Below are positions 25,327 to 63,934 of a stretch of DNA of 64,000 nt, piece after piece. Source of the stretch: Alphaproteobacteria bacterium (lineage in GTDB: Bacteria > Pseudomonadota > Alphaproteobacteria > RF32 > CAG-239); assembly GCA_017626035.1 (NCBI GenBank), contig JAGAJR010000016.1, forward strand, positions 41,272 through 105,271. Direction: 5' to 3'. The notes under the pieces were generated by a model that was given only the letters and a program-made list of their open reading frames with translations, searched no databases and had not been told where the DNA came from. Position 1 is the stretch's first letter. Each line of letters begins with the position of its first letter. Position numbers and translations under genes: made by a program.

Positions 25327-25350
25327 TTTGATTTTGCTCCTTAAAAATAA

Positions 25351-27000: not shown

Positions 27001-27008
27001 TTGCCGAA

Positions 27009-29691: not shown

Positions 29692-29712
29692 CGTTTTATC
29701 CTTTTCTTAAAG

Positions 29713-31993: not shown

Positions 31994-32043
31994 ACATATT
32001 GAAAATTAAATAATCAAGCACGACACTTCAGTTATTACCAAGG

Positions 32044-33789: not shown

Positions 33790-34112
33790 CAAAATCAAAA
33801 CCCCTCTAAACCCTTGATAATTCAATATGCGACTCTTGGCAAGAAGATATAAAATTATGCACAAAATCTGTGGATTCTTTTTTTGATATGATTCTGATTT
33901 ATTAGAGAAATATTTACCATTAGGGGTGTAAGAATAAGGATGTTTATACTTCTTTAATAACTGTGAATTTTTTGTTACAGGGAAAAATATTATTGTAAAT
34001 CAGCTTGTTATCCGTTTTTTAGGAAGAAGAATATTGCTGGTAAAAAAGTTAAAAATTAGCTATCCTAAAAGAGTATAAGAAGTTTTGCTAAATTAATTTA
34101 AGGAGAAAGATT
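33790..34112. promoter_or_regulatory. Divergent intergenic control region between the pil operon (-) and the virB2 genes (+)
   Basis: About 320 bp of AT-rich non-coding DNA between the two outward-facing operons. The promoters must lie here, but no specific boxes could be assigned confidently. Confidence 0.35.
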
Positions 34113-34972: not shown

Positions 34973-35010
34973 TGATGTTTTGAATGTCTGGAACTGATTG
35001 GGAGGGTGCT

Positions 35011-51151: not shown

Positions 51152-51910
51152 ATGAACGAACCAAATAACAGATTAGAAGGGACAAGAGTTTTATCCATAA
51201 CCGACGCCAACGGAATTCATAGAGAATTTGCCAGTGAGGTGGAACAGGAAGTATCAGGGTTTAAACTTAAATATTATATGTGGTTATCCCGCTTGTTTGT
51301 ATTATTTGCCGTGGCTTCTCTTCTGTTGTTTATGAGTTCGTCTCTTTCTTTGTTCAAATTGGCACCGTTGGTTACGGTGGAACCTTTTTTAATTATCCAG
51401 CAGGATTCTTCCGACGGAATTGTCCGTAATGAACCTATTGAATATAATATGGCTTCAAAAAATCAGTTAATGGAAACTTTTGTCCGTCAATATGTTTTGC
51501 TCAGAAATACGGTTATTTATGATGAAAAGGAAATGATGACCCGTTGGTATGGCGGCGGAATGCTGAATTTCCTTTCTGCTCCGAGAGTTTTCTCCGATTT
51601 TGAACAATACCGCGACAGCGTCTGGAACAAAATGCGTGAAGATGAACAAGTTCGGGAAGTCGAGATTATTTCTATCGGAAAACTCGGCGGTGAACGAAGC
51701 CCGGTGTGGAAAGTCGATTTCAAAACGTATGATTTGTCTGCGGTAGACAGAGATCAGAAAACTAAAGCACAAATTTTAACGGTGCGTTATTGGACGGCTT
51801 CCGTTACGGCATATTTTGTGCGGGAACGCGTATTTGTCGGTCTTCGGTTAATCAATCCTTTAGGTTTTACAGTTACAAGATATTCACAAACAGAGGTCGA
51901 AATCTTCTAG
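51152..51910 (+). CDS. virB8: VirB8-family T4SS protein, paralog 1
   Basis: N-terminal TM helix (LFVLFAVASLLLFMSSSLSLF), FVRQYVLLRN, and the conserved C-terminal NPLGFTVTRY motif of VirB8. Confidence 0.85.
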   Translation: MNEPNNRLEGTRVLSITDANGIHREFASEVEQEVSGFKLKYYMWLSRLFVLFAVASLLLFMSSSLSLFKLAPLVTVEPFLIIQQDSSDGIVRNEPIEYNMASKNQLMETFVRQYVLLRNTVIYDEKEMMTRWYGGGMLNFLSAPRVFSDFEQYRDSVWNKMREDEQVREVEIISIGKLGGERSPVWKVDFKTYDLSAVDRDQKTKAQILTVRYWTASVTAYFVRERVFVGLRLINPLGFTVTRYSQTEVEIF

Positions 51911-52014: not shown

Positions 52015-52203
52015 ATGTATAAAAGATTTGTGATGGTTTTCCTCATCCTGCTGTTGACGGCCTGCGGTATTTTCGGTTCGTATTATGAAGCAGAACCTGT
52101 CGGCGTCGGTAAAGGTGTGGATGAGTTGAAGCTGTCTCCTTGTGCTTGTATGCAGCTTGATTTGCCGAAAGATTTGCCGGATTGGTTTGTGGAAACAATC
52201 TAA
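52015..52203 (+). CDS. Small lipoprotein, VirB7-like by position
   Basis: 62 aa. Lipobox LLLTACG. It lies between the virB8 copies and just upstream of virB9, where VirB7-type lipoproteins occur. There is no sequence-level proof. Confidence 0.5.
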   Translation: MYKRFVMVFLILLLTACGIFGSYYEAEPVGVGKGVDELKLSPCACMQLDLPKDLPDWFVETI

Positions 52204-52223: not shown

Positions 52224-52958
52224 ATGGCAAATGCTCTCGGCGGAAATAATACGGAACAAAGACTGATTGGAAGCAGGGCTCAAGCGGCTCCGAGAAATAC
52301 ATCCCGTGCCAATGCGGATGTGTTTGTTGCCAATGTGGCCGAAAAAAGATATTTGTGGACGGCTCGTGCTTTCGCAATCATTACGGCCATCAGCTTATGC
52401 TGTAATGTTATTTTAATTTTGGCGATTATGCAGGTTTTGCCTTTATATCGTATTGAACCGTTTTTGCTGACATTCCAAAACAGGCAGGAACAAGTGTATA
52501 ATATCCAGCCGGTCAAAGGAGATTTGGCTGACGAAAAAGCAATTACCGAAGTGTTTGTCCGAGAATATGTTTTGCTCCGCAGCTCGTTCGATTTGGATAT
52601 TCCGGAAATGGAAGCCCGTTGGATGCCGGGCGGGCCGGTTCAGGAAATGTCTTCCGGTGCGGTTTATTCCGAATTCCTTGAAAAAACGGCTAAAAGGGCA
52701 CTGACGATTATTCGAACAAAAAGTATGATAAGAAATGTTCGTATTTTGACCGTAAATGAACTGGGAAAAGGTTTGTGGCAGGTGGAATACGAAACGCAGG
52801 ATATGTATCCGGATTCGTCAACGCCGGAAATCAATTATTGGACGGCATCTCTGCGGGTGGCTTATCGTCGGAAGAGCGTAAAGTATGGCGAAAGATTAAA
52901 AAATCCGGTCGGTTTTACGGTGGTACGTTACTCACTGACATATAATAAAGTAAAATAA
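52224..52958 (+). CDS. virB8: VirB8-family T4SS protein, paralog 2
   Basis: TM helix (AFAIITAISLCCNVILILAIM), FVREYVLLRS, and a C-terminal NPVGFTVVRY motif. It is a clear paralog of 51152-51910. Confidence 0.85.
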   Translation: MANALGGNNTEQRLIGSRAQAAPRNTSRANADVFVANVAEKRYLWTARAFAIITAISLCCNVILILAIMQVLPLYRIEPFLLTFQNRQEQVYNIQPVKGDLADEKAITEVFVREYVLLRSSFDLDIPEMEARWMPGGPVQEMSSGAVYSEFLEKTAKRALTIIRTKSMIRNVRILTVNELGKGLWQVEYETQDMYPDSSTPEINYWTASLRVAYRRKSVKYGERLKNPVGFTVVRYSLTYNKVK

Positions 52959-52972
52959 AGGTGTATTTTGTA

Positions 52973-54664
52973 ATGGTTTTAAGAGCGGTTAAGATATTTT
53001 TTGTTGGGGCGGTAATGCTGTTGGTTGCCGGAAAAAATGCTTATTCTCAGGCAACGATGGGAAGTCTTGATCAAAATGCCGATCAAAGCCAGGGACAGTA
53101 TATGCCGATGAATATGGGATACGCCGGTTTTAACTCTTTGGGTATGGTGCAGAGTGCGTGGCTGGATCCGCTTCAGAACTTGGGTGAAGGACAGTCTAAG
53201 CCTGCTTATTCCAGATATTATTGGTCTCCGGATTTGGTATTGCCGATACGTCTCCGCGAAGGAATGATGACATTGATTAACTTTCCGGAATGGGAAATGG
53301 TTGAGGATATGTTCATCGGTGATAATTCATCTTTTGACGGTCAGATTACCGGTCCTAATACGATCTTGCTCTATCCTCGGAAAGGGGCGAATGTCGGTGT
53401 GGATACAAACATTATCATCTTTGGTCGTTCCGGAAACCGCTATGTGTTCTATGTTAAGAGTGAAGGTGTAAATACCGAAAGGTTGACAAACTCCATTATT
53501 GATATTGATGTCATTGACGGACCCTCGGGGTCGCGGGGTGCCGGAGTAAGCGGAGCCCGCAGCAATGGCGGAAGATCAGGGGTTAATGCCAGTTCTCTCA
53601 AAGGCGGCAGCGGGCTTTCTGTAGATTCTACTTTTACCAAACGCTTTGGTAAAAATGACTGGATTAAAGAAATTCCTTTGGATCCGACAAAGTTTAGATT
53701 TGACATTGAAGTTTATGTTCCAAACCCGGATGATGTGGTAATTGCACCGGAAAGAGTTTGGAGAGATGATATCTTTACTTATATTGATTTGGGCGAAAAG
53801 GCTCTGAATATGACACAGCGTCCGATTGTAACCCTTATTGTCGAAAGAATTGAGGTGCCGGTGGGCTTTAGAACCAAGGGGCCGAATAACCGTTTGATTA
53901 TTGTTGAAGGTATCGGCGATATGGTTATGAGAAACGGAAAGCGTATTATCTGCTTGAAAATGCGTCGTTCTGATGACTATGGAATGGAAATGGCAACTTA
54001 TGCAACTGATTTTGAAGACAGTTCGTGGGATGTTGCTCCGAAATTGCCGGGCGGACGTCAGAGTAACAGCCAGGGCGGAGCCGGATATAACGGCGGTAAC
54101 GGTGGTTTCGGCGGTGCCGGTTCTAATGACGGATTTGATGAAGTCGGCGGTGATTCTCCGGGAGATTACGGAAATTATCCGGGAGCTCCGGGACAATATG
54201 ACATCAAAGTCGGCAATAGTGAAATTATTGCTCGGAACAATGCTCAAGGCGGTGATGTCAGTGTCGGTTACCAAGGTCAGGGACAACCGTCCGGAAACTT
54301 TGATTACTCAAAGATGCAGCGGATTAGCAATAATCATAATTATAACAGCGGTGCTTTGGGCGGTAACGGTCAGTTCAGCTATGGTTCCGGTTTCTCTGAC
54401 GGAGGTTCGAATATTTCAATCGAGCTTGGAACGGATGCTGATGTCGGAAATCTTGAAAAATTATGGAGCGGCCTGACTAAGAAATATCCGGATATTCTCA
54501 ATCGGTATGAGCCGTTCTTCTCTGTAGATGCTCCGGCGGACGGACAGGGAAAAGAGTTGTTCCACCTGCGTGTCGGACCGGTTAATTCTCTTGATGACGG
54601 AGATTCTGTCTGCAGCAAACTGGGTCGAAACGGTGTATTTTGTAGTGTAGTCAGGACGCAATGA
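52973..54664 (+). CDS. virB9: VirB9/CagX-family T4SS protein fused to a C-terminal SPOR domain
   Basis: The VirB9 N-domain contains PIRLREGMMTLINFPEWEMVEDMFIGD...TNIIIFGRSGNRYVFYV. The VirB9 C-domain contains IAPERVWRDDIFTYIDLG...IVTLIVE...GKRIICL. A G/N-rich linker follows. The last ~84 aa (ISIELGTDADVGNLEKLW....FHLRVGPVNSLDDGDSVCSKLGRNGVFCSVV) are SPOR-like. The ATG at 52973 is preferred over the GTG at 52961. Confidence 0.8.
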   Translation: MVLRAVKIFFVGAVMLLVAGKNAYSQATMGSLDQNADQSQGQYMPMNMGYAGFNSLGMVQSAWLDPLQNLGEGQSKPAYSRYYWSPDLVLPIRLREGMMTLINFPEWEMVEDMFIGDNSSFDGQITGPNTILLYPRKGANVGVDTNIIIFGRSGNRYVFYVKSEGVNTERLTNSIIDIDVIDGPSGSRGAGVSGARSNGGRSGVNASSLKGGSGLSVDSTFTKRFGKNDWIKEIPLDPTKFRFDIEVYVPNPDDVVIAPERVWRDDIFTYIDLGEKALNMTQRPIVTLIVERIEVPVGFRTKGPNNRLIIVEGIGDMVMRNGKRIICLKMRRSDDYGMEMATYATDFEDSSWDVAPKLPGGRQSNSQGGAGYNGGNGGFGGAGSNDGFDEVGGDSPGDYGNYPGAPGQYDIKVGNSEIIARNNAQGGDVSVGYQGQGQPSGNFDYSKMQRISNNHNYNSGALGGNGQFSYGSGFSDGGSNISIELGTDADVGNLEKLWSGLTKKYPDILNRYEPFFSVDAPADGQGKELFHLRVGPVNSLDDGDSVCSKLGRNGVFCSVVRTQ

Positions 54665-57600
54665 GCAAAGAAGTATTAACACGTTCCGAAACTTATGTAA
54701 GAAAAACCAACCGCATTATTCTTGCGGTTGGTATTACTTCGTTTGTAATCTTTGTTTTTGGTGTTATGCTTCTTATTCAAAGCAACGAAGTTGTTGATGA
54801 CTATCAGGAACCTGTTTTTACGGATAATGATGATGCCTTAAACATCGGAGAAGTCAAACCTCTGGAGAATAATCTGGAGTTTGGAAATGTTGACGACGGC
54901 GAGATTCCGATTACAACGACGCCAAATCCCGTTAATATGGGGCAAGTGGTTTTGGGAACTGATGCTCGTAATGTATTGACAATCGGAACAAACGGCAAGG
55001 CCTCCATAACGATTAGTTCCGTACAGTTGGCGGAACCTCCGTTTGACGGTTTCAGTTTTCATGATGATTGCAGCGGAAAAACACTGAGAGGTAATGAACA
55101 TTGCGATATTACCATGTCGTGGGTGCCGATTGTCGCCGGAAATGTTCAAAACAATTTTATTGTTTCGTGGCATGAATCAAACTTAAGCGTCAGCAATGCA
55201 AAATCGGAAAAAATTCCGGTTGACGGAAATGCCATCCGTAAAGAAGATTGTAACTTTTGTGAAACGGCTTTGCCGAAAGACGGCGAGGTTGAACAGAAAA
55301 GTGCCTCAAAATTACGGGCAATCATCGGACCGAACGGAGAAATCATCGGCTATGCGGATGAAGACGGCTATGTTCGCGATAAGGACGGCAACATTATCGG
55401 CCGTGTTAATGCCAACGGAATGGCCGTTGATGAAGATGGCAACATTATCGGCGTGGCCGATAACCGCAAACTTGTTTATGATGAATTCGGCAATGTGATT
55501 GGCTATGTTAATCCTGACGGAACGGTTGTAGACAAAGACGGAAACGTTATCGGAAGAATGTTGCCGGACGGGACGGTTGTTGATGCTAACGGCAATGTTA
55601 TCGGTAAAGCTGTCGATGCCGGTTATGTGTATGACAAGGACGGCAATATTATCGGAAGAGTTCTTCCGGACGGAACGGTTGTCGATATGGACGGTAATGT
55701 TATCGGGCGTCTGAATGAAAACGGCGAGGTTGTTGATGCCAACGGCAATGTGATTGGTTATGTCAGCAAGCCGGGACGGGTGGCTGTCGATGAAAACGGT
55801 AATGTTTTGGGTGTGGTTATGCCGAACGGAGCGGTTGTGGATGCCAACGGCAACCTTGTCGGCTATGTTGATGAAAACGGTAATGTCGTTAAAGATAAAA
55901 CTTTGGGAAGCAATCGGCGTTTTGCTTATGATAAAGACGGTAATATTATCGGGTACATTGATGAAAACGGCAATGTAATTGATGCCAACGGCAATATCAT
56001 CGGCAGAATGCTGGAAGACGGCACCGTTGTTGATTTGGACGGCAATGTAATTGGCGAGGCCGGAGATGTTACGGCCGGTCCGATGCGTCGTTTGGCTTAT
56101 GATAAAGACGGCAATGTCATCGGTTATATTGATGAAAACGGTAATGTTGTTGATTTTAACGGCAATATTATCGGAAAAATGCTGGAAGACGGTACTTTAG
56201 TCGATATGGACGGTAATGTTATCGGCAAGGCCGGGGAATATGCAAATCTGGCTTTGGATAAATACGGCAATGTGATTGGTTATGTAAAGCCGGACGGAAC
56301 AATTGTCGATAAAGACGGCAACGTCATCGGTAAGGTCTCCGATATGACGGTAGGGCCGCAACGTCGTCTGGCTTATGATAAAGACGGCAATGTCATCGGT
56401 TATATTGATGAAAACGGTAATGTTGTTGATTTTAACGGCAATATTATCGGAAAAATGTTGGAAGACGGTACTTTAGTGGATGCTGACGGCAATGTCATCG
56501 GTCGTGCCGGAGAATACGTCAATCTGGCTTTGGACAAGAACGGAAAAGTTATTGGTTATGTCAGTGCCGACGGAAAAGTATATGATCTTAACGGTAATGA
56601 AATAGGCTATATTGATGAAAGCGGAAATATTGTCAGCAATGAACGCTATAAAATCGGCGGATTGGTTGAAACTCAGATGATTCCGGTCATGGCTTCCGGA
56701 GAAATTTTGGGAACAGTCAATAATAACGGTACCGTTGAAAATGAAAGACAGCAGATTGTCGGACGAATTCTTTCCAATGGGTTGGTCAAAGATCCTTCCG
56801 GTTCCAAAGTCATTGCCCGGTTGGTGCGAGGCGGCCTGGTAGTCGGTTACGGATGTAAAAACATCGGGTATCTGGAACGGGATGGAAAAATCCGCAAATC
56901 TAATCAGGATACCGGATACAAAGTCGGAAGCGACGGAATTGTAACCGACAGTTCGGGAACTTACATCGGTGAGGTCGTTTCTCCGGGAAAAGTTTTTGAT
57001 AATTCCTGCACACTTTTAGGTGAAGTCGGAACAGACGGAATTGTTCGCGGCGGCTCCAATAATTATGTCGGCTGTGTCAATCCGGACGGAACGGTTTTGG
57101 ATGAAAAGGGAGACATTATCGGTGGTACGGTTAAAAGCGGGATAGCCCTTTCTTATGACGGAGAATATCTGGGCAAAGTTTCACCTGACGGTTTGGTAAT
57201 ATCTCCGGCGTTGCTTCCGGTCGGCTGTGTCGGCACATACGGTGATGTTTTCAGCCGTAACGGCGGATATATCGGAAAAATTCTCGAAAACAAATATGCT
57301 TTTGACTTGGACGGAAACTTTCTGAATATGGTTGGCGAAGACGGCAAGGTTTATGTTGCGGGACAGGCTCCGGCCAGATTATTGGCAAATAATCTTATTG
57401 TGGATGATAATAACACGATTATCGGTATGGCTATGGGCGAAAAAACGGCGATAGTCAGTCCGGACGGCAAAGTTCTCGGACGTTTGTTCCCGGATGGTTA
57501 TGTTTATAGTGATAAAGGTGTGGCCGTAGGAAAAATCAACGGAGACGGCATGAGCTTTTATAACAAACAAATCGGGCGTCCGATGCCGAAAGGCGAAGTG

Positions 57601-58521
57601 GTTGATTTTAACGGAAAGCGTCTCGGTAAAGTCAGCGGAGACGGAACGGTTGTTAACCGTTTCGGCGAAACTCTGGGTAAAATCGATGCCAAAGGAAACC
57701 TGCTTGATTACAAAGGCGAATATAAGGGAGCCGCTTTGCTTCGCGGTGCCGCCATCGGCTATGACGGAGCTTATCTGGGATATAGTCTGGCAGACGGAAG
57801 CATAATCAACCTCGACGGAAAGAACGAAGGAAAAGCCAGTGCCGACGGCAAAGTTCTTGATGCTCAAAATAATGTTATCGGCGAAATTCTTCCGGAAAAC
57901 ATTGTGGTAGACATCTGGGGCAATTATAAAGGGCGTATCAACTCTTTGGGCGATGTGTTTGATTTGAAAAACGACAATATTACCGCCATTTTGCCGGGTG
58001 GTTCTACGGATAAAAACCTCAGCCTTCTGAAAAGAGGAGCCGTGATTGATTTTGGCGGAAACGTCATTGGCACCGTTGCTCCGGACGGAAGGGTAATTGA
58101 CACGGAAAACGTGGCAATCGGCAGAGTGCTGTCTGACGGAAACGTGATTAGCCGAGCCGGAAAATTAATCGGGGAAGTGGTTGAAGGTGATATTGTTATT
58201 GATAACTCGGATAAAGTTGTGGGATATGTTAATTTTGATGGTAAAATCATCGGCAAGGACAAGAGCGTTATCGGCCGGGCTTTGTCGGGAGATTTGGCTA
58301 TTGACAATAATGACAGTATTCTGGGCAGAATTTATAAAATAGGGGCTACTATTTTAGGAAACGACGGAAACTATGTCGGACGATTGTCTCCGGAAGGCGA
58401 AGTTGTCGATGTTAACGGAAAAAATATCGGTTACATCAAAAATAACGGCTCTTTTATAGATTTGGATAAAAAAGTATCGGGGTACGCCCTTCAGGAAGTG
58501 GCTAAAAACCGGAGGAACTGA
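54661..58521 (+). CDS. Giant (1286 aa) bitopic repeat protein built from DG-x-(V/I)IG units
   Basis: N-terminal cytoplasmic tail plus one TM helix (IILAVGITSFVIFVFGVMLLI), a VirB10-like topology. A beta-rich domain follows. From ~55321 to the end there are dozens of short repeats such as VDKDGNVIGRMLPDGTVVDANGNVIGKA. ATGA overlap with virB9. Confidence 0.75.
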   Translation: MSKEVLTRSETYVRKTNRIILAVGITSFVIFVFGVMLLIQSNEVVDDYQEPVFTDNDDALNIGEVKPLENNLEFGNVDDGEIPITTTPNPVNMGQVVLGTDARNVLTIGTNGKASITISSVQLAEPPFDGFSFHDDCSGKTLRGNEHCDITMSWVPIVAGNVQNNFIVSWHESNLSVSNAKSEKIPVDGNAIRKEDCNFCETALPKDGEVEQKSASKLRAIIGPNGEIIGYADEDGYVRDKDGNIIGRVNANGMAVDEDGNIIGVADNRKLVYDEFGNVIGYVNPDGTVVDKDGNVIGRMLPDGTVVDANGNVIGKAVDAGYVYDKDGNIIGRVLPDGTVVDMDGNVIGRLNENGEVVDANGNVIGYVSKPGRVAVDENGNVLGVVMPNGAVVDANGNLVGYVDENGNVVKDKTLGSNRRFAYDKDGNIIGYIDENGNVIDANGNIIGRMLEDGTVVDLDGNVIGEAGDVTAGPMRRLAYDKDGNVIGYIDENGNVVDFNGNIIGKMLEDGTLVDMDGNVIGKAGEYANLALDKYGNVIGYVKPDGTIVDKDGNVIGKVSDMTVGPQRRLAYDKDGNVIGYIDENGNVVDFNGNIIGKMLEDGTLVDADGNVIGRAGEYVNLALDKNGKVIGYVSADGKVYDLNGNEIGYIDESGNIVSNERYKIGGLVETQMIPVMASGEILGTVNNNGTVENERQQIVGRILSNGLVKDPSGSKVIARLVRGGLVVGYGCKNIGYLERDGKIRKSNQDTGYKVGSDGIVTDSSGTYIGEVVSPGKVFDNSCTLLGEVGTDGIVRGGSNNYVGCVNPDGTVLDEKGDIIGGTVKSGIALSYDGEYLGKVSPDGLVISPALLPVGCVGTYGDVFSRNGGYIGKILENKYAFDLDGNFLNMVGEDGKVYVAGQAPARLLANNLIVDDNNTIIGMAMGEKTAIVSPDGKVLGRLFPDGYVYSDKGVAVGKINGDGMSFYNKQIGRPMPKGEVVDFNGKRLGKVSGDGTVVNRFGETLGKIDAKGNLLDYKGEYKGAALLRGAAIGYDGAYLGYSLADGSIINLDGKNEGKASADGKVLDAQNNVIGEILPENIVVDIWGNYKGRINSLGDVFDLKNDNITAILPGGSTDKNLSLLKRGAVIDFGGNVIGTVAPDGRVIDTENVAIGRVLSDGNVISRAGKLIGEVVEGDIVIDNSDKVVGYVNFDGKIIGKDKSVIGRALSGDLAIDNNDSILGRIYKIGATILGNDGNYVGRLSPEGEVVDVNGKNIGYIKNNGSFIDLDKKVSGYALQEVAKNRRN
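55915..56637 (+). repeat. In-frame tandem long repeats (171 + 276 + 276 bp) inside the 1286-aa gene
   Basis: Units start at 55915, 56086 and 56362, and each opens with RR(F/L)AYDKDGN(I/V)IGYIDENGNV. From 56095 and 56371 the DNA is identical for ~87 bp, and ~108 bp with one mismatch. Confidence 0.8.
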
Positions 58522-58523
58522 GT

Positions 58524-61500
58524 TTGAAACGGAATAATTTTTATAGTCTTTTCGGTAAAATTGCCCAAACCTTTACGGTTGCGGCAGTTTGCTTTTTTAT
58601 GTCTGTTTCTCATGCCGAAGCTCAGGAAATTACGGCGATAGATTTTAACGGCGATCTGCTGGGAAAAGTTATTCCGGACGGTAAAGTCGTCAGCTTGGAT
58701 AACCAACTGATTGGTAATGTTACCGCCGACAGCTTGATTGTAAACTTTGACGGAGAATTGATAGGTGGTGTTATTCCTCAGGGAATTGCCATCGGAAATG
58801 ACAATAAACTGCTGGGTAAGGTTAATAACGACGGTTCCGTGCGTATGTCATCCGGAAAAATCATCGGAAAAGTTTTGCCGACAGGTTTGGTAATTGACGA
58901 TTATTTTGACGTTATCGGTGCGGTTTTGTTTCCGGGATTGGTTTATTCCGACGGAGGACGGACAGTCGGCCGTTTGACTGGTGATGGTTTATACACTAAT
59001 TTGCAGGGGCAGGAGATTGGTTTTGTTTCTCCTGACGGTTACGCTTATCGCCGGGTTGGAACGGATTATGTGCTCGACGGCCGTTTGATTTCATCCAAAA
59101 TGGTGGTTTCCGAAAGCGGAGAATTTATCGGCAGTGTTACCCCGGGAGGGAATATTACTGATTTTGACGCCGTAACAATCGGTTTTATTAAGGCAAACGG
59201 GTTTGCTTACAATGAAAACAATACGATTATCGGCCGTATTGTTCGTTCGGGATACGCTTTTGATAATTTTGGCCGCTATATCGGCTTTGTAACCTACAAC
59301 GGAGAAGTCCTTGATAAAGACAAATTAGTCGGACATTTACGTTCTGACGGTAAGATTGCCGGAGAAAAAGGCGAGATTATCGGGTTTAGTGTTGACATTT
59401 CGGCAACGGCGACGGATTCTACCGGAAAATTCTTAGGCCGTGTTATGCCGAACGGAAAAATTTATCGAGCCAGAGAAGAAGCCGGAGTATTAGGGGCTAA
59501 AGGTATTGTTTATAATAAAGACGGAAATGCCGTCGGGCAGATTGTCCGGTCAGGTCCGGTTTTTGACTATAAAGGATCTTTGGTTGCTCATGCTTTGAAA
59601 AACGGTAAGGTTATTTTGCTGGAAGGAACGCCGACGGGATATGTTATCGGCAACAAGGCTTATGACAACAACGGCCGTTTAACCGGTGCGACGCTTGATG
59701 AACTTTTGGTGGTTAACGGAAATAATAAAGCATTGGGAATTGTCGGTATTAACGCTTCTGTTTTTGACGGAGACGATCGCCGTATTGTTTCCCCGTTCGG
59801 ATATGTTTTTAATACAGACGGAGGGATTAACGGTTCCGCTTTGCCTTTGGGGGCAATCTATAACATCAGCGGTATTCCTGTTTCGGAAATTTCCCCGAAC
59901 GGAGAATTGTATAATAAAGGAAGCCTGGCTCTTGGCAAGTTGACGCAAAGCGGCGTTAATATTGATGAGAGAAACCGGATACTCGGTAAAAATGTTTGTC
60001 CGCTGTTTGTTGTAGATGAGAGCGGAAGTTCCTTGGGAAATTTATCGGAAGGAAATTTGGTTTTAAATAAGGGATTAAAAATAACGGCAAAGGTTTTGCC
60101 TGATAATTCCGTTGTTCCTGCCTCTGAAGAGGATTCTGTTGATTTAAGCCCGAAAACGGGAAATGCCTATCAAAATAATATCGTGATAAGTTATACTGGA
60201 AACCTTTTAGGATATACCAATGATGACGGCAGTGTTCGTGATTTTAACGGCAACCGTTTGGGTAAAGTTTCCGGTCGAGGGATGGTTGTTGATAATAACG
60301 GTTCGGTTATCGGCGGACTGATAGGATATGATACGGTTATTGACGATGATTGCACGATGATTGGCGTAATCGACCCGAAAGGCGAAATCAAAAACTTCCG
60401 CAATGTCAGTATGGGACGGATTTTGTTAAACGGTCAGGCTGTTTCTGAAAGCGGAAATTATATCGGTTATGCGGTAAATGCCCAATCCGTAGTCGATTAC
60501 AGCGGAAATGTTCTCGGCGTCGCTTCTGCCGGAGGCCGGGTTTTGAACTATGCGGATGAACAATTAGGTTGTCTGAACAAGAAAAAACTTTTGAAAAATG
60601 CCGATAATACAATCATCGGCGGCAGTGTTGAATATTATCCGGTAATGAATTTTAACGGAACGGTTATCGGCCGCAGTATTTTGGACGGTTCGGTCGTTAA
60701 TGATAAAAGTATGGTTATCGGCTATATGCAGCCGGATGGTAACGTTAATTCCAAAACCGGTGTTCCTGTCGGTGGTTTGTTCAAATATAAAGTCGCTTTT
60801 GACGACAATAACAAATTTATCGGCCGCGTTTTGGAAAACGGCAAAGTTGTCAATGCCGGAAATGAGGAAATCGGACAAGTTGATTTTGTCGGTTACGTTT
60901 CCAATAAAGACGGAGCCAAAATAGGGTATGCTTTGTATGATTTTTATATCTATGACAACAACTTCTCCGTTATGGGATATATTAACAAAGACGGCACAGT
61001 TCTCTCCCTGTTGGGGCAAAAGCTCGGAACCTTGGATCGTGGTTTTCTGATTGACAGGGGCGGACAGGTCATCGGCCGGGGCAATCGTGATTTTTATATC
61101 AGGGATGAAAGCAATTTGGTTTTGGGTGAATTAAGTTTGGACGGCGAGTTGGTTAATGTGTCCGGCGAAGTTCTCGGAACAATCAATAAAGAGGGAAATA
61201 TTTTGGATGCCGAAGGCAAAACCATTGCCACGGCCAAACCGTTGCAGTTTTATAATCTGACGCTTGATCGCCAGAAAGTATATGATGAAAACGGCAATTT
61301 AATCGGCTATGTCAATAAAGACGGCAGCGTTGTTGATGAAAACGGCAAACTCATCGGTTTGGTTAATGATGACGGTATCGTTATTTCCGCCAACGGCAAC
61401 ATTATCGGCGGCACATCTCTGGATTGGTATGAAAAAGCCCCTCAAACTGCTCCGAAAGACAATAAACTGCCGGAAGTCGGAGTTAATGAATATCAGGAAA

Positions 61501-62951
61501 TCAAGGAAAAATACCGTAAGTCTTTAGGAATAGCTTTGACGCCGGATGGAGAATATCTCGGAGAAATTATGGAAGACGGCAATGTGGTCGATAAAAGCGG
61601 CAACGTTTTAGGGCATAAAATGCCGGATGGTTTGGTTATTGATAACGACGGAACATTAATTGGTATTGAAGAAGCCAGTAAGCCGAATACGGACGGAATG
61701 TTTATTCCGGCGGGAACTTTCGGCAGTGGTGGAGCTTACGGCGTAGGAGCCGGTTCGGGAACTAATTTGGGACCGGGCGGCGGTTTCGGACCGGGAGAAC
61801 GTTACGATCCGCAGCGTGCGGCTGCTTTGGATGCTGCTCAAAATCAACGTCGTCAGGGAATGGCTGTCGGCAAAATAAGTACCAATGTCCGTAAAGAAGC
61901 TTTTGACGGTTATCAGAAAAACTGGGATGAACAAGGCGTTTCCAAGGCTATTTCTTCATGGCGGGTTAAGTTAGACGAGATGATTTTTGCGGATAAGCCT
62001 ATTCCGGCCGTATTATCCCGTTCTATCGACAGCAACAATCCTACCCCGATTACCGCTTTTGTGGAGAGAAATATTTATGCGGAAGAGGGGCGAAACATCA
62101 TTATTCCGGCGGGAAGCCGTTTGGTCGGAACTTTGGGCGGCTTGACCGGAACCACGGAAACTACTTCTCAGTCTGCAAAAGTTCAAATCTCCTGGGAACG
62201 CTTGATTCGTCCGGATGGCGTATTGTTTACTTTTGCTGGTATTACGGCCGACGCACAGGGACGAGGCGGTGCTCTGGGTTATTTGGATCAACAGTTGTTT
62301 AAGAAATATACACTGCCGATTATGACAACGGCGTTAACCAGCTATACCTCTTACTTAATGGCTGAAGATGACAAGAGCAGCGGCGAGACGGAAAGCTCCA
62401 GACAGCAGGCGGCTAATGATGCTCGTCAAAACTTCTTAAATGAGATGAACCAAGTGTTTGAACAGATTTTGGCGGATAAAACCAACATTAAGCCTTTGAC
62501 TTATGTTCCTGCCGGAACCAGAATTATTGTCTTCCCGAATGTGGATTTGTGGATGAGAACCGAAGAACGCGATGCTGAGGCAAGCACCGGACAGGGTAGT
62601 AAGAAAGACGTCTTCATTGATGATGAAAAAGTTTCAAATGACAGAAAACTGCAAGAAAACAAACGTGCGGTTAATATCAGTGCAAGCTCTGCTTCTCAGG
62701 CCGGAAATGTTCTGTATGAGGCTGATGATGCCGGTGTTGAGGCTGTGGATGCTCCGCCTAAATTGATTGATGACAGCTCGGTTAAAAATAAAAAGAAGGC
62801 CAAAGGACAGCCTACAAATCCGGGTTTGGTAAGCGGCAGCACGCCGCCTCCGCCGCCGACGTATTCGACAACGCCGGGAGCCAATAATGCTTCCTCGGGA
62901 AGTTCCAACAGTAACCAGAACAGCGACAGCAGTGTCCCGCAATTATTCTGA
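58524..62951 (+). CDS. virB10: Giant VirB10/TrbI-family protein (1475 aa) with ~1000-aa DG-x-x-IG repeat region (CagY-like architecture)
   Basis: N-terminal signal/anchor, degenerate DG..IG repeats (~58630-61670) and a Gly-rich linker. The canonical VirB10 core lies at ~61940-62555 (IPAVLSRSIDSNNPTPITAFVERNIY...IIIPAGSRLVG...ISWERLIRPDG...GALGYLDQQ...VPAGTRIIVFPNVDL). A P/S/N-rich tail follows. TTG start after GGAGGA. Confidence 0.85.
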   Translation: MKRNNFYSLFGKIAQTFTVAAVCFFMSVSHAEAQEITAIDFNGDLLGKVIPDGKVVSLDNQLIGNVTADSLIVNFDGELIGGVIPQGIAIGNDNKLLGKVNNDGSVRMSSGKIIGKVLPTGLVIDDYFDVIGAVLFPGLVYSDGGRTVGRLTGDGLYTNLQGQEIGFVSPDGYAYRRVGTDYVLDGRLISSKMVVSESGEFIGSVTPGGNITDFDAVTIGFIKANGFAYNENNTIIGRIVRSGYAFDNFGRYIGFVTYNGEVLDKDKLVGHLRSDGKIAGEKGEIIGFSVDISATATDSTGKFLGRVMPNGKIYRAREEAGVLGAKGIVYNKDGNAVGQIVRSGPVFDYKGSLVAHALKNGKVILLEGTPTGYVIGNKAYDNNGRLTGATLDELLVVNGNNKALGIVGINASVFDGDDRRIVSPFGYVFNTDGGINGSALPLGAIYNISGIPVSEISPNGELYNKGSLALGKLTQSGVNIDERNRILGKNVCPLFVVDESGSSLGNLSEGNLVLNKGLKITAKVLPDNSVVPASEEDSVDLSPKTGNAYQNNIVISYTGNLLGYTNDDGSVRDFNGNRLGKVSGRGMVVDNNGSVIGGLIGYDTVIDDDCTMIGVIDPKGEIKNFRNVSMGRILLNGQAVSESGNYIGYAVNAQSVVDYSGNVLGVASAGGRVLNYADEQLGCLNKKKLLKNADNTIIGGSVEYYPVMNFNGTVIGRSILDGSVVNDKSMVIGYMQPDGNVNSKTGVPVGGLFKYKVAFDDNNKFIGRVLENGKVVNAGNEEIGQVDFVGYVSNKDGAKIGYALYDFYIYDNNFSVMGYINKDGTVLSLLGQKLGTLDRGFLIDRGGQVIGRGNRDFYIRDESNLVLGELSLDGELVNVSGEVLGTINKEGNILDAEGKTIATAKPLQFYNLTLDRQKVYDENGNLIGYVNKDGSVVDENGKLIGLVNDDGIVISANGNIIGGTSLDWYEKAPQTAPKDNKLPEVGVNEYQEIKEKYRKSLGIALTPDGEYLGEIMEDGNVVDKSGNVLGHKMPDGLVIDNDGTLIGIEEASKPNTDGMFIPAGTFGSGGAYGVGAGSGTNLGPGGGFGPGERYDPQRAAALDAAQNQRRQGMAVGKISTNVRKEAFDGYQKNWDEQGVSKAISSWRVKLDEMIFADKPIPAVLSRSIDSNNPTPITAFVERNIYAEEGRNIIIPAGSRLVGTLGGLTGTTETTSQSAKVQISWERLIRPDGVLFTFAGITADAQGRGGALGYLDQQLFKKYTLPIMTTALTSYTSYLMAEDDKSSGETESSRQQAANDARQNFLNEMNQVFEQILADKTNIKPLTYVPAGTRIIVFPNVDLWMRTEERDAEASTGQGSKKDVFIDDEKVSNDRKLQENKRAVNISASSASQAGNVLYEADDAGVEAVDAPPKLIDDSSVKNKKKAKGQPTNPGLVSGSTPPPPPTYSTTPGANNASSGSSNSNQNSDSSVPQLF

Positions 62952-62965
62952 CAGGAGAATGGGAA

Positions 62966-63934
62966 ATGAGTTTTAAAGTATTGGAATCAGTGTTAAGACC
63001 GTTATCTTATTGGTATAATCAGGATAATATCGAGGAAGTTGCCATCAACCGTTCCGGGCAGATTTGGCTGCGTCTTCGCGGTAAAAGGGCTTATCCGTGG
63101 GTTATGTATAAAGATGAGAAATTAACTAAAGAATATTTGGTGGATTTGCTTTATATTATTGCCAATACGTATGAACTGCCGTTTGATCCGGTTCAGGGAA
63201 CTCCGGTTGTCTATGCGACCATTCCGGGCGAACATCGTTTTTCGGCGATTGCCGGCCGTAACGTTATGTATGACCAAGACGATCTGACCGGCGGTGTGGC
63301 CATAGCCATCCGTCTCCATAGTGAAGATGTTGCCTTTGGTTTACAGGACTATGGTTTGAGCCAGGGTTCCGGATTGCACAAGATTAACCCGTTAAAAGAC
63401 ATTAAAGATCCGGAAGATCCTTATGAACGGCTGTTGTTGAGTTTGAAACGCGGTGATCATATTTTGGTGAGTGGTGCGACTTCAACCGGTAAAACAACCT
63501 TCTTAAACAACTTGCTGAAGATTTTGGACATCAATAAACGTATTGTAACCATTGAAGATACTCGAGAATTATTGGTTCCGCATCCGAACCGCGTCCATTT
63601 GGTCTTGTCCCGTACCGAACAAACCAATACGATGGATTACAGCAAAATCATCGACTTGGTGGTGCGTTTTACACCTGATGCCATTATCGGCGGTGAGATT
63701 TCCACCAGTAACGCCGGAGCCTTGTGGGAGCTGATGGGATCCGGACACGATAACTGTTTGGCAACTATCCATGCCGAGAGCTCCGAAGCGGCTTATAAAG
63801 CGTTTACCGACCGTATTTTGCATACTTATCCGACAATTGACAGGGTAAAAACAATTGAAGAAATGCACAAAAAACTGCGGGTTGTTCAAATTAATCGTGA
63901 TGGCAACTTGCGTGCTATTACCGAAGTAACTTAA
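62966..63934 (+). CDS. virB11: VirB11-family T4SS ATPase
   Basis: 322 aa. Walker A GATSTGKTT, IVTIEDTREL, Walker B-region PDAIIGGEIS and His box GHDNCLATIHAES. Confidence 0.92.
   Translation: MSFKVLESVLRPLSYWYNQDNIEEVAINRSGQIWLRLRGKRAYPWVMYKDEKLTKEYLVDLLYIIANTYELPFDPVQGTPVVYATIPGEHRFSAIAGRNVMYDQDDLTGGVAIAIRLHSEDVAFGLQDYGLSQGSGLHKINPLKDIKDPEDPYERLLLSLKRGDHILVSGATSTGKTTFLNNLLKILDINKRIVTIEDTRELLVPHPNRVHLVLSRTEQTNTMDYSKIIDLVVRFTPDAIIGGEISTSNAGALWELMGSGHDNCLATIHAESSEAAYKAFTDRILHTYPTIDRVKTIEEMHKKLRVVQINRDGNLRAITEVT

What the first reader, a model, noticed from the sequence alone, without database searches (positions are those of the whole stretch)
54661..62951. Two adjacent giant DG-x-x-IG repeat proteins, the second carrying the VirB10 core: a CagY analogue built from a different repeat
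Seen: about 6 kb of coding sequence (55321-58490 and 58630-61670) consists of short units, roughly 10-11 residues each, with the theme (V/I)D.(D/N)GN(V/I)IG...DGTVV. The first protein has the VirB10-like N-terminal topology of a cytoplasmic tail plus one TM helix, but no VirB10 barrel. The second has an N-terminal signal/anchor, the repeats, a Gly-rich linker, the canonical TrbI/VirB10 barrel (61940-62555), and an extra PPPPP and S/N-rich tail. Established: VirB10 spans both membranes, and in H. pylori the VirB10 homolog CagY carries a huge repeat region that is surface exposed and modulates function. Inference: these repeats could form a long beta-solenoid-like periplasmic or extracellular stalk or sheath. 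The two genes look like a partial duplication or split of one ancestral giant virB10.
Basis: partly seen in the sequence, partly recalled or inferred. Interest (0 to 1): 0.85.

Follow-up and report, generated by a model that had tools for sequence, protein, structure and literature searches.

The report
Split giant VirB10 with beta-flower repeats
In an uncultured gut alphaproteobacterium, the protein that normally links the two membranes of a type IV secretion machine (VirB10) is enlarged about six-fold by 17-residue beta-hairpin repeats and cut into two separately exported proteins, an arrangement I could not find described in the literature I searched.

Summary
Window 54661-58521 (p1, 1286 aa) and 58524-62951 (p2, 1475 aa) sit between virB9 and virB11. 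Each carries about 1,000 aa of repeats. The unit is 17 aa, not 10-11, and it matches Pfam beta-flower/DUF3659 families, not a beta-solenoid.

- **p1:** cytoplasmic tail, one TM helix, an ASH/PapD-like Ig domain, then repeats.
- **p2:** a cleavable-type Sec signal peptide, repeats, a Gly-rich linker, a VirB10 barrel with antenna helices, and a disordered tail ending in VPQLF.

The gene pair is intact in about 70 species-level MAGs of gut and rumen Alphaproteobacteria, so it is not an assembly artefact. Related loci with the same gene order encode one unsplit 2,144-2,350 aa protein with the p1 N-terminus and the VirB10 barrel. So p1 and p2 are two halves of one giant VirB10.

The arrays are under strong purifying selection (dN/dS 0.02-0.05), with no repeat-unit indels at dS of about 1. 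That is unlike CagY. The same repeats also occur in DotG-like and CpaB proteins.

Most likely they form a periplasmic scaffold whose two halves re-associate. That step is inferred, not shown. I rate this a new variant of a known kind, interest about 0.66.

The parts
52961..54664 (+). virB9/CagX-like gene (567 aa). Its stop overlaps the p1 start codon (ATGA). It carries a C-terminal SPOR domain at 54374-54661.
   Evidence: Pfam CagX 1.1e-10. SPOR scores 23.5 bits against a cut-off of 21 when the last 96 aa are scanned alone. Junction sequence.
54661..58521 (+). p1: the inner-membrane half of the split VirB10 (1286 aa).
   Evidence: ORF. Pfam Bflower_2 2.9e-87 in 13 stretches, and no TrbI. Orthologues are intact in 69-70 species. 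It is collinear with residues 1-1346 of the unsplit P0368.
54661..54780 (+). p1 aa 1-40: a short, positively charged cytoplasmic tail (R8, R14, K15, R18) and a single TM helix.
   Evidence: AF2 helix 8-40. The motif S-x-x-Y-x-(K/R)-(K/R)-(T/S)-N-R is shared with the unsplit giants.
54910..55236 (+). p1 aa 84-192: an ASH/PapD-like (HYDIN/VesB-type) Ig-like beta-sandwich domain.
   Evidence: AF2 pLDDT 82-90. Foldseek hits HYDIN and CEP192 ASH domains at E 3e-6 to 1e-5, TM-target 0.62-0.67. Pfam ASH 22.5 bits, below the cut-off of 27. NCBIfam choice-of-anchor D 8.9e-6, below cut-off.
55315..58440 (+). p1 repeat array, aa 219-1260: about 60 units of 17 aa (beta-hairpins).
   Evidence: dN/dS 0.019-0.025.
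55861..56340 (+). p1 aa ~401-560: a repeat block present in only about 22-25% of species. It overlaps the 276-nt (92-aa, five-unit) duplicated super-repeat at 56017-56568, whose copies are 82% identical.
   Evidence: Column occupancy 0.22-0.55 across 70 orthologues. Family D4. TRF. Lag-92 similarity z = 14.4.
58511..58515 (+). GGAGG Shine-Dalgarno for p2, 8 nt upstream of its TTG start. It lies inside the last p1 codons, which encode ...K-N-R-R-N.
   Evidence: Sequence. The p1 C-terminus EVAKNRRN is found in 61 of 70 species. The p1-stop to p2-start spacing is 1-4 nt in most species.
58524..62951 (+). p2: the outer-membrane half of the split VirB10 (1475 aa).
   Evidence: ORF. Pfam Bflower_2 5.8e-63 plus TrbI 9.2e-34. 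Orthologues are 1420-2325 aa in 70 species.
58524..62622 (+). NOTE: the intended feature is 58524-58622. p2 aa 1-33 is a Sec-type signal peptide: n-region K2/R3, a 13-residue h-region, then A-E-A | Q-E-I-T-A.
   Evidence: All 70 orthologues have a variable signal peptide ending in small residues at -3 and -1, followed by the near-invariant EITA(I/V)(D/N)F. dN/dS is 0.335 in this segment, against 0.02-0.05 downstream.
58635..61670 (+). p2 repeat array, aa 38-1049: about 60 units of 17 aa. The units are more degenerate in the middle.
   Evidence: Conservation is highest at aa 35-194 and 995-1154.
61680..61805 (+). p2 aa 1053-1094: a Gly-rich disordered linker.
   Evidence: AF2 pLDDT below 50 at model residues 274-315. 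No Pfam match.
61983..62552 (+). p2 aa 1154-1343: the TrbI/VirB10 beta-barrel domain. The two-helix antenna is at aa 1257-1279 and 1292-1321 (nt 62292-62486).
   Evidence: Pfam TrbI. NCBIfam ComB10 and VirB10 match below cut-off. Foldseek hits VirB10 of X. citri (6gyb_C, 1.9e-12), TrwE (7o3j_A), CagY (6x6k), ComB10 (2bhv), TraF (3jqo) and DotG (9ngw). Helices.
62679..62948 (+). p2 aa 1386-1475: a disordered Pro/Ser/Asn-rich tail ending in the conserved VPQLF.
   Evidence: AF2 pLDDT 33-40. The end motif [SG][VI]P[QA]LF is found in 78 of 80 loci.
62966..63934 (+). virB11 ATPase gene, immediately downstream.
   Evidence: Pfam T2SSE 2e-21. Conserved position in all loci.

Best explanation
p1 and p2 are the two halves of a single, greatly enlarged VirB10, the envelope-spanning scaffold of a chromosomal VirB-type type IV secretion system in an uncultured gut alphaproteobacterium.

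**Shown**
- In related bacteria, one 2,144-2,350 aa polypeptide carries, in order: a short cytoplasmic tail, one TM helix, an ASH-like Ig domain, about 1,600 aa of 17-residue beta-hairpin repeats of the beta-flower/DUF3659 family, and the VirB10 barrel.
- In this lineage the gene is cut within the array. p1 keeps the inner-membrane anchor, the Ig domain and about 60 hairpins. p2 has gained its own Sec signal peptide and carries about 60 hairpins, a Gly-rich linker, the outer-membrane barrel with antenna helices, and a disordered tail.
- The genes are packed for translational coupling. The Shine-Dalgarno sequence for p2 lies inside the last codons of p1.

**Inferred**
- Both arrays are periplasmic and replace the Pro-rich linker of canonical VirB10.
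- The two halves re-associate non-covalently, probably through the highly conserved p1 C-terminal and p2 N-terminal hairpins, to rebuild the bridge between inner and outer membrane.
- Multiplied by the roughly 14-fold symmetry of VirB10 rings, the arrays would form a large periplasmic ring or cage. This would be analogous to the enlarged core complexes of the Cag and Dot/Icm systems. It would not be a surface-exposed variable antigen.
For: **Architecture**
- Pfam, AF2 and Foldseek results.

**Split**
- P0368, P0370, P0399 and P0413 have the p1 N-terminus at residues 1-205 and the VirB10 barrel at about 1800-2225 in one chain.
- They lie in the same gene order, VirB8-lipoprotein-VirB8-VirB9-X-VirB11. 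P0370 occurs in two independent assemblies.
- p1 aligns to residues 1-1346 of P0368 and p2 to residues 780-2156.

**Not an artefact or pseudogene**
- Both genes are intact in about 70 species-level MAGs from many studies.
- dN/dS is 0.023 for p1 and 0.033 for p2, with dS of about 1.

**p2 is exported without an anchor**
- A conserved signal-peptide architecture with a relaxed sequence, followed by an invariant mature N-terminus.

**Coupling**
- ATGA overlap with virB9, GGAGG 8 nt before the p2 TTG start, and 1-4 nt spacing in most species.

**Periplasmic scaffold role**
- The same arrays are inserted between the TM anchor and the C-terminal domain of DotG/IcmE-like proteins, next to DotH.
- They also occur in CpaB/RcpC of Tad pili. 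Both are periplasm-spanning parts of trans-envelope machines.
- The most conserved array segments are those next to the membrane-proximal Ig domain, next to the barrel, and at the p1-end / p2-start junction.
Against: - No experiment and no complex prediction shows that p1 binds p2.
- p1 and p2 array lengths do not co-vary across species (Spearman 0.04).
- Stretched out, about 120 hairpins (roughly 24 five-hairpin modules) would far exceed the width of a periplasm. The geometry is therefore unknown.
- Whether the hairpins close into discrete beta-flowers was not verified. AF2 pTM was only 0.29-0.31, coordinates could not be inspected, and no PDB structure matches the repeats.
- The direction of the change (split versus fusion) rests on parsimony with canonical VirB10, not on a rooted tree.
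- Canonical VirB10 transmits energy-dependent conformational changes through one chain. It is unclear how a two-piece version would do so.
Confidence: 0.6

Rival explanations
1. CagY-like reading. The repeat arrays are exposed to the host or environment. They vary rapidly by recombination between repeats, to tune T4SS function or evade immunity.
For: - The organism lives in the gut (record titles).
- Array length differs between species: p1 1071-1579 aa, p2 1420-2325 aa.
- One 276-nt block is duplicated at 82% identity.
- CagY and DotG repeat regions are reported to be variable (PMC6761968).
Against: - Window and L004 differ at 14% of nucleotides (dS of about 1), yet show only 8 gap positions over 8291 nt and no repeat-unit indel.
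- dN/dS of the arrays is 0.018-0.055, as low as VirB9.
- Most DNA repeat copies are only 60-80% identical, which makes them poor recombination substrates.
- In the unsplit forms, topology places the array between an inner-membrane anchor and an outer-membrane barrel.
- The same arrays occur in the periplasmic CpaB.
Confidence: 0.1
2. p1 is an independent accessory protein of the T4SS or the envelope. It could be a DotF-like inner-membrane partner or a peptidoglycan-binding spacer that shares a repeat type with VirB10. It need not pair end-to-end with p2, and the unsplit proteins would then be secondary fusions.
For: - p1 and p2 lengths are uncorrelated.
- Dot/Icm has a separate inner-membrane partner, DotF, that interacts with DotG (PMC6761968).
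- The adjacent VirB9 carries a SPOR domain. This suggests the machine is tied to peptidoglycan.
Against: - The canonical VirB10 layout (TM anchor plus barrel in one chain) is reproduced exactly by the unsplit giants, which carry the same N-terminal motif and Ig domain.
- p2 has no anchor of its own.
- The junction is tightly coupled and conserved.
Confidence: 0.2
3. The repeats are YD/RHS-type repeats that form an encapsulating shell or toxin-delivery module, not beta-flower domains.
For: - Pfam RHS_repeat 1.9e-19 and TIGR01643 YD_repeat 1.1e-18 on p1.
- The best PDB sequence hits are Rhs proteins at E of about 5e-5.
- Some sources name homologues 'YD repeat-containing protein'.
Against: - Bflower_2 scores far higher (288 bits, 13 stretches).
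- RHS_core scores 15 bits against a cut-off of 2000.
- There is no Rhs core, no aspartyl-protease plug and no C-terminal toxin domain.
- Foldseek finds no Rhs shell for the AF2 models.
Confidence: 0.05
4. The split is an assembly artefact or a recent pseudogenisation of one gene.
For: - Repeat regions are hard to assemble.
- L001, L002 and L083 show frameshifts or an N-gap in this region.
Against: - The same stop, signal peptide and mature N-terminus are found in 70 independently assembled species.
- Both halves are under strong purifying selection.
- DNA repeats are mostly 60-80% identical.
Confidence: 0.02

Closest known systems
CagY (Helicobacter pylori Cag T4SS VirB10 homologue)
   Same: A VirB10 C-terminal barrel preceded by a very large repeat region. 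It is part of an enlarged core complex. Foldseek matches the p2 barrel to CagY chains (6x6k_AY at 2.3e-11, 6odi_b at 1.1e-09).
   Different: - CagY is one polypeptide. Its repeats are unrelated in sequence.
- CagY repeats are reported to rearrange by recombination and to be host-exposed (PMC6761968).
- Here the repeats are 17-aa beta-hairpins under strong purifying selection, with no indels at dS of about 1.
- Here the protein is split in two.
DotG/IcmE (Legionella Dot/Icm T4BSS VirB10 homologue)
   Same: The layout is TM anchor, long central repeat region, then TrbI domain. Environmental DotG-like proteins (P0163, P0173, P0177, P0185, P0207 and others) carry the same beta-flower arrays as this window, and lie next to DotH.
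   Different: - L. pneumophila DotG uses pentapeptide repeats, variable in number (PMC6761968).
- DotG is a single chain.
- The window's system has a VirB8/9/10/11 gene order, not Dot/Icm.
Beta-flower proteins (Pfam PF21784/PF21785, clan CL0395; Durairaj et al. 2023, PMC10584680) and DUF3659 (PF12396)
   Same: Strong HMM matches. The semiconserved [DNEQ]xxG hairpin-tip motif is present. The repeat unit is a beta-hairpin.
   Different: - The described beta-flowers are small single domains of about 96 residues, some of them lipoproteins, with unknown function.
- Here, arrays of about 60 hairpins are embedded in a secretion-system scaffold.
- Closure into discrete flowers was not verified here.
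Canonical VirB10/TrbI (A. tumefaciens VirB10, pKM101 TraF, R388 TrwE, X. citri VirB10)
   Same: - C-terminal barrel with a two-helix antenna.
- Gene sits between virB9 and virB11.
- Together, p1 and p2 reproduce the sequence of N-terminal tail, TM helix, periplasmic linker and barrel.
   Different: - About 400 aa in one chain with a Pro-rich linker, against 2,761 aa in two chains with beta-flower arrays and an Ig domain.
- The barrel-bearing chain has a signal peptide instead of a TM anchor.
CpaB/RcpC of Tad/Flp pili carrying beta-flower arrays (Gilvimarinus spp.)
   Same: The same repeat family is inserted in another periplasm-spanning assembly protein: SAF plus beta-flower plus RcpC domains, 776-833 aa.
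   Different: It belongs to a different machine and has different terminal domains. I did not examine it further.

Membership tests
VirB10/TrbI family | C-terminal TrbI beta-barrel domain | tested here: met
   p2 aa 1154-1343: Pfam PF03743 at 117.4 bits against a cut-off of 35. Foldseek hits solved VirB10, TrwE, CagY, ComB10, TraF and DotG at E 2e-12 to 5e-5, TM-target about 0.6-0.67.
VirB10/TrbI family | Two-helix antenna projection within the barrel (the outer-membrane-spanning element) | tested here: met
   AF2 predicts helices at p2 1257-1279 and 1292-1321, inside the barrel. This is a prediction only.
VirB10/TrbI family | N-terminal cytoplasmic tail and a single inner-membrane TM helix on the same polypeptide as the barrel | tested here: not met
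   p2 starts with a Sec signal peptide ending A-E-A|QEITA, conserved in 70 species. The tail and TM helix are on p1. The feature is met in the unsplit relatives P0368, P0370, P0399 and P0413.
VirB10/TrbI family | Pro-rich periplasmic linker | tested here: not met
   It is replaced by about 2,000 aa of 17-aa hairpin repeats plus a Gly-rich linker.
VirB10/TrbI family | Gene located between virB9 and virB11 in a virB-type operon | tested here: met
Beta-flower (PF21785/PF21784) | HMM match above the gathering threshold | tested here: met
   - p1: Bflower_2 288 bits (cut-off 38), Bflower 123 bits (cut-off 25).
- p2: 210 and 76 bits.
Beta-flower (PF21785/PF21784) | Semiconserved [DNEQ]xxG motif at the hairpin tips (PMC10584680) | tested here: met
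   Each unit contains D/N-G-x-V and D-x-(D/N)-G-N.
Beta-flower (PF21785/PF21784) | Hairpins close into a shallow 8-, 10- or 12-stranded barrel with 4-, 5- or 6-fold symmetry | tested here: inconclusive
   AF2 gives regular hairpins with pLDDT 70-90 but pTM 0.29-0.31. Coordinates could not be inspected and there was no PDB match. A 92-aa (five-unit) super-repeat is seen only in p1 aa 231-650.
CagY-type variable repeat VirB10 | Near-identical DNA repeats that drive in-frame recombination and strain-level length variation | tested here: not met
   Repeat copies are mostly 60-80% identical. Window and L004 show 8 gap positions over 8291 nt at 85.6% identity. dN/dS is 0.02-0.05.
CagY-type variable repeat VirB10 | Surface exposure of the repeat region | not testable with these tools
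   This needs localisation experiments.
RHS/YD-repeat proteins | Rhs core, shell and C-terminal toxin | tested here: not met
   RHS_core scores 15 bits against a cut-off of 2000. Only repeat-level similarity is seen.
Rickettsiales vir homologue (rvh) T4SS | Duplication of VirB8, VirB9 and VirB4, multicopy VirB6, and no VirB5 (hallmarks as listed in PMC11077975) | tested here: inconclusive
   - VirB8 is duplicated, with a 62-aa lipoprotein ORF between the copies.
- Only one VirB9 and one VirB4-like gene were recognised in the window. The 856-aa ORF is not a VirB4 paralogue.
- The large upstream ORFs were not identified.

The most novel reading that the evidence does not exclude
Beta-flower hairpin arrays are a general, previously unrecognised periplasmic scaffold module. 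They have been recruited repeatedly into the envelope-spanning component of at least three machines: VirB10 of VirB-type T4SSs, DotG of Dot/Icm-type T4SSs, and CpaB of Tad pili.

In the gut alphaproteobacterial lineage, this has allowed VirB10 to be divided into an inner-membrane piece and an outer-membrane piece. The two snap together through complementary hairpins at the junction. This would be a natural two-piece VirB10, and it would give the first functional context for the beta-flower fold.
Probability: 0.4. Interest if true: 0.8.

Novelty: new variant of a known kind. Interest (0 to 1): 0.66.

Why it matters
- VirB10 is the only T4SS component that contacts both membranes, and it is thought to transmit ATP-dependent signals from the inner membrane to the outer-membrane pore. 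A natural version cut into two proteins, conserved under strong purifying selection across about 70 species, tests whether covalent continuity is needed for that role.
- It also gives a concrete cellular context, the periplasmic part of trans-envelope machines, for the beta-flower fold. That fold was described in 2023 from structure predictions with no known function.
- The carriers are widespread, uncultured gut and rumen Alphaproteobacteria. Their conserved chromosomal T4SS hints at a contact-dependent lifestyle that has not been studied.

Tried and rejected
1. **Word-indexed homologue search with the p1 N-terminus.** It returned only short contig-end fragments and no architectures. The exhaustive representative search was needed to find the unsplit forms.
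2. **Partial duplication test.**
   - p1 and p2 align to overlapping parts of the unsplit P0368 (1-1346 and 780-2156). Their summed length exceeds it by about 560 aa.
   - However, the best p1-p2 diagonal is array-start to array-start at 27% identity. That is what any two such arrays give, so the result is inconclusive.
3. **Length co-variation of p1 and p2 across species.** Spearman 0.04. The Pearson value of 0.43 is driven by one clade. This gives no support for side-by-side pairing.
4. **PDB searches for the repeats.** The sequence search found only weak Rhs/YD similarity. The Foldseek searches found no match for the arrays. Only the Ig domain and the barrel matched.
5. **Higher-order period of 85 aa as evidence for five-fold flowers.** It was not consistent across segments.
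6. **rvh membership.** Only the VirB8 duplication is seen. The 856-aa ORF is not a second VirB4. No VirD4 follows virB11 in L004.
7. **Literature.** I found no paper linking beta-flower or DUF3659 to T4SS, and none on T4SS in RF32-type gut Alphaproteobacteria.
8. **L083.** This locus looked like an unsplit form, but it has a 100-N scaffold gap inside the array. I did not rely on it.

Full report
**What is there**

Window 34.4-64 kb is a + strand type IV secretion operon. In order it holds:
- a VirB2-like pilin and a VirB4-like ATPase;
- several large unassigned ORFs;
- two VirB8 paralogues;
- a VirB9/CagX homologue (52961-54664);
- the two ORFs of the finding;
- VirB11 (62966-63934).

p1 is 54661-58521 (1286 aa). 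Its ATG overlaps the virB9 stop as ATGA. p2 is 58524-62951 (1475 aa). It starts at a TTG 2 nt after the p1 stop, and a GGAGG lies 8 nt upstream, inside the last p1 codons.

**The repeats**

The unit is 17 aa (51 nt), with consensus x4-DG-x-VV-D-x-DGN-VIG. Each unit contains two 8-9-residue half-motifs, which probably explains that estimate.
- Gly autocorrelation at lag 17 has z = 5-12 against shuffles in p1 231-650, p1 651-1260, p2 40-500, p2 501-900 and p2 901-1120. There is no signal in p2 1121-1475.
- At the DNA level most copies are 60-80% identical. One 276-nt (92-aa, five-unit) block at 56017-56568 is duplicated at 82% identity.

**Family assignment**

| Pfam family | p1 | p2 |
|---|---|---|
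| PF21785 Bflower_2 | 2.9e-87, 13 stretches | 5.8e-63, 8 stretches |
| PF21784 Bflower | match | match |
| PF12396 DUF3659 | match | match |
| RHS_repeat | 1.9e-19 | not reported |

NCBIfam YD_repeat_2x hits p1 at 1.1e-18 and p2 only weakly (0.0045).

The beta-flower fold was defined from AlphaFold models by Durairaj et al. 2023 (PMC10584680). It is a shallow barrel of 8, 10 or 12 short strands built from hairpin 'petals' with a [DNEQ]xxG tip motif. No PDB relative was known apart from a resemblance to the Tubby C-terminal domain, and its function is unknown.

Consistent with that, the PDB sequence search gave only weak Rhs hits at E of about 5e-5. Foldseek found nothing for the arrays. AF2 predicts regular hairpins with pLDDT 70-90. 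The pTM is only about 0.3 and I could not inspect coordinates. Whether the hairpins close into discrete flowers is therefore not settled here. A beta-solenoid is not what is predicted.

**Non-repeat parts of p1**
- Helix 8-40, preceded by R8, R14, K15 and R18. This gives an N-in bitopic topology.
- A disordered linker.
- A beta-sandwich at aa 84-192 with pLDDT 82-90. It matches ASH/PapD-like domains of HYDIN and CEP192 (Foldseek 3e-6 to 1e-5, TM-target 0.62-0.67). Sub-threshold Pfam ASH/HYDIN-VesB Ig and NCBIfam choice-of-anchor-D hits agree.

**Non-repeat parts of p2**
- A signal peptide (aa 1-33, ...SHAEA|QEITA).
- After the array, a Gly-rich disordered linker (aa 1053-1094).
- A TrbI/VirB10 domain at aa 1154-1343 (117 bits against a cut-off of 35).
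- The model of that domain matches solved VirB10-family structures: X. citri VirB10 6gyb_C at 1.9e-12, TrwE, CagY, ComB10, TraF and DotG.
- The model contains the two antenna helices (aa 1257-1279 and 1292-1321).
- The last 90 residues are disordered and end in VPQLF.

**It is not an artefact**

A scan of species-representative genomes with the barrel found more than 80 loci. Almost all are MAGs labelled uncultured Alphaproteobacteria, 'Azospirillum sp.', Candidatus Scatocola or Proteobacteria bacterium CAG:495. They come from human, chicken, mouse and ruminant gut.
- In 70 of these loci both genes are intact, in the order VirB8-VirB8-VirB9-p1-p2-VirB11.
- p1 is 1071-1579 aa (median 1143).
- p2 is 1420-2325 aa (median 1512).
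- Every p2 begins with a variable, signal-peptide-like segment ending in small residues at -3 and -1, followed by the near-invariant EITA(I/V)(D/N)FNG.
- p1 ends in EVAKNRRN in 61 of 70 loci. p2 ends in [SG][VI]P[QA]LF in 78 of 80.

**The two genes are halves of one VirB10**

An exhaustive HMMER search with the p1 N-terminal 215 aa found four cluster representatives in which that N-terminus lies at residues 1-205 of a much longer protein. These are P0368 (2201 aa), P0370 (2350 aa), P0399 (2144 aa) and P0413 (2152 aa).
- Local phmmer and Pfam show that the same chains carry the VirB10 barrel at about 1800-2225, with beta-flower arrays in between.
- Their loci have the same gene order: VirB8, a 58-65-aa ORF, VirB8, VirB9, the giant, VirB11.
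- P0370 occurs identically in a JGI assembly and an ENA assembly.
- p1 aligns collinearly with P0368 1-1346, and p2 with 780-2156.

Canonical VirB10 has the anchor and the barrel on one chain. The simplest history is therefore a giant unsplit VirB10 that was later split in the gut lineage, with p2 acquiring a signal peptide. Whether a partial duplication accompanied the split is unresolved.

**Selection**

The window and L004 (same or sister species) are 85.6% identical over all 8291 nt, with only 8 gap positions. No repeat unit has been gained or lost. Nei-Gojobori estimates are:

| Segment | dN/dS |
|---|---|
| p1 (whole) | 0.023 |
| p2 (whole) | 0.033 |
| Array segments | 0.018-0.055 |
| p2 signal peptide | 0.335 |
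| VirB9 | 0.046 |
| VirB11 | 0.009 |

dS is about 0.9-1.0 for p1 and p2.

Across about 70 species, the best conserved array segments are p1 241-400, p1 1081-1286, p2 35-194 and p2 995-1154. The p2 35-194 segment is almost as conserved as the barrel. p1 401-560 is an insertion found in about a quarter of species.

This is the signature of a constrained structural element. It is not that of a hypervariable, host-exposed repeat of the kind reported for CagY or DotG (PMC6761968).

**Wider distribution**

The array search shows the same repeats in three contexts:
- p2-type VirB10 proteins of other Alphaproteobacteria.
- DotG/IcmE-like proteins of 750-970 aa. Their N-terminal tail, TM helix and 'GGFD..PEYAKLQEQQN' segment precede the arrays and a DotG-type C-terminal domain. 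They are encoded next to DotH/IcmK.
- CpaB/RcpC Tad-pilus proteins of Gilvimarinus (SAF plus beta-flower plus RcpC domains).

All three are periplasm-spanning components of trans-envelope machines. This is the main reason to place the arrays in the periplasm.

**Mechanism**

*Shown:* the architecture, the split, export of p2 without an anchor, tight coupling of the genes, and strong constraint.

*Inferred:*
- The arrays replace the Pro-rich linker of VirB10.
- p1 and p2 re-associate, plausibly through the conserved junction hairpins.
- With the multimeric VirB10 ring, they build an enlarged periplasmic scaffold.

*Open problems:*
- There is no direct evidence that p1 and p2 interact.
- Their lengths do not co-vary.
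- About 120 hairpins per p1-p2 pair are far more than is needed to cross a periplasm.
- It is unclear how energy sensing would pass through a non-covalent joint.

**Novelty**

VirB10 homologues with giant repeat inserts are known (CagY, DotG). This one differs in three ways: a different repeat family of unknown function, an added Ig domain, and a conserved division into two polypeptides. Databases already label individual members 'DUF3659 domain-containing', '5-fold beta-flower protein' or 'TrbI/VirB10 family protein'. Seven literature searches found no description of the combination. I rate it a new variant of a known kind.

Noticed in passing
window 54374-54661 (C-terminus of the virB9 gene, 52961-54664): At 567 aa, VirB9 is about twice the usual length. 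It ends in a SPOR (peptidoglycan-binding) domain scoring 23.5 bits against a cut-off of 21. A Gly/Asn/Ser-rich low-complexity region precedes it. The same C-terminal sequence is present in the VirB9 of L083. A SPOR-tagged VirB9 would tie the core complex to the cell wall.
   Followed up: partly
window 52015-52203 (+), between the two virB8 paralogues (51152-51910 and 52224-52958): A 62-aa ORF has a lipoprotein-type signal (MYKRFVMVFLILLLTAC...), so it is probably a VirB7-like lipoprotein. ORFs of 58-65 aa sit at the same place in L083, L086 and L087. As far as I recall, the order virB8-virB7-virB8-virB9-virB10-virB11 resembles the Rickettsiales rvh system. That system is regarded as a signature of Rickettsiales (PMC11077975). 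I did not find a second VirB4 or a second VirB9 in the window.
   Followed up: partly
window 45571-51138 (+): A 1855-aa ORF sits inside the T4SS operon. It has an N-terminal signal-like segment, long Ala/Lys/Glu-rich and coiled-coil-like regions, and no Pfam or NCBIfam match. ORFs 34984-37554, 40464-42890, 42887-43675 and 43685-45574 are equally unassigned.
   Followed up: partly
window 62934-62948 (last five codons of p2): The extreme C-terminus [SG][VI]P[QA]LF is conserved in 78 of 80 loci, at the end of an otherwise poorly conserved, disordered tail. Related endings (PELF, GGLF, GQIF) occur in the unsplit giants. It could be a docking or sorting motif.
   Followed up: partly
window 58497-58523: The near-invariant p1 C-terminus EVAKNRRN is encoded by ...AACCGGAGGAAC TGA. 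This sequence contains the GGAGG ribosome-binding site for p2. Part of the protein-level conservation may therefore reflect the translation signal.
   Followed up: partly
window 24193-33864 (- strand): A second envelope machine lies upstream on the opposite strand. It includes a secretin (29713-31323; Pfam Secretin 1.8e-15) and a T2SSE-type ATPase (25351-27000; 9.6e-66), with further unassigned ORFs.
   Followed up: no
L084 10001-12553, L085 8450-11002, and proteins P0167, P0180, P0182, P0188, P0200: Beta-flower arrays also sit in the central region of DotG/IcmE-like proteins, next to DotH. In L. pneumophila DotG that position holds pentapeptide repeats. They also occur in CpaB/RcpC Tad-pilus proteins of Gilvimarinus species.
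   Followed up: partly
L001 (GCA_018263635.1, contig VZQY01000132.1, 1.79 Mb): A 1.79-Mb contig carries the same locus, but p1, p2, virB8 and virB11 are broken into many short ORFs. This looks like uncorrected long-read indel errors rather than decay. I did not identify the assembly's nominal organism.
   Followed up: no
L004 12112-21125 (downstream of virB11): No VirD4-type coupling protein follows virB11. The next genes are on the opposite strand and have no Pfam match, apart from an HTH regulator. No coupling protein or relaxase was recognised among the window ORFs I scanned. The substrate of this T4SS is unknown.
   Followed up: partly
L083 9881-9980: A 100-N scaffold gap lies inside the repeat array of an apparently unsplit giant virB10. 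It shows that these arrays do break some short-read assemblies. Gene callers there and in L002 called spurious minus-strand genes or truncated starts across the arrays.
   Followed up: yes
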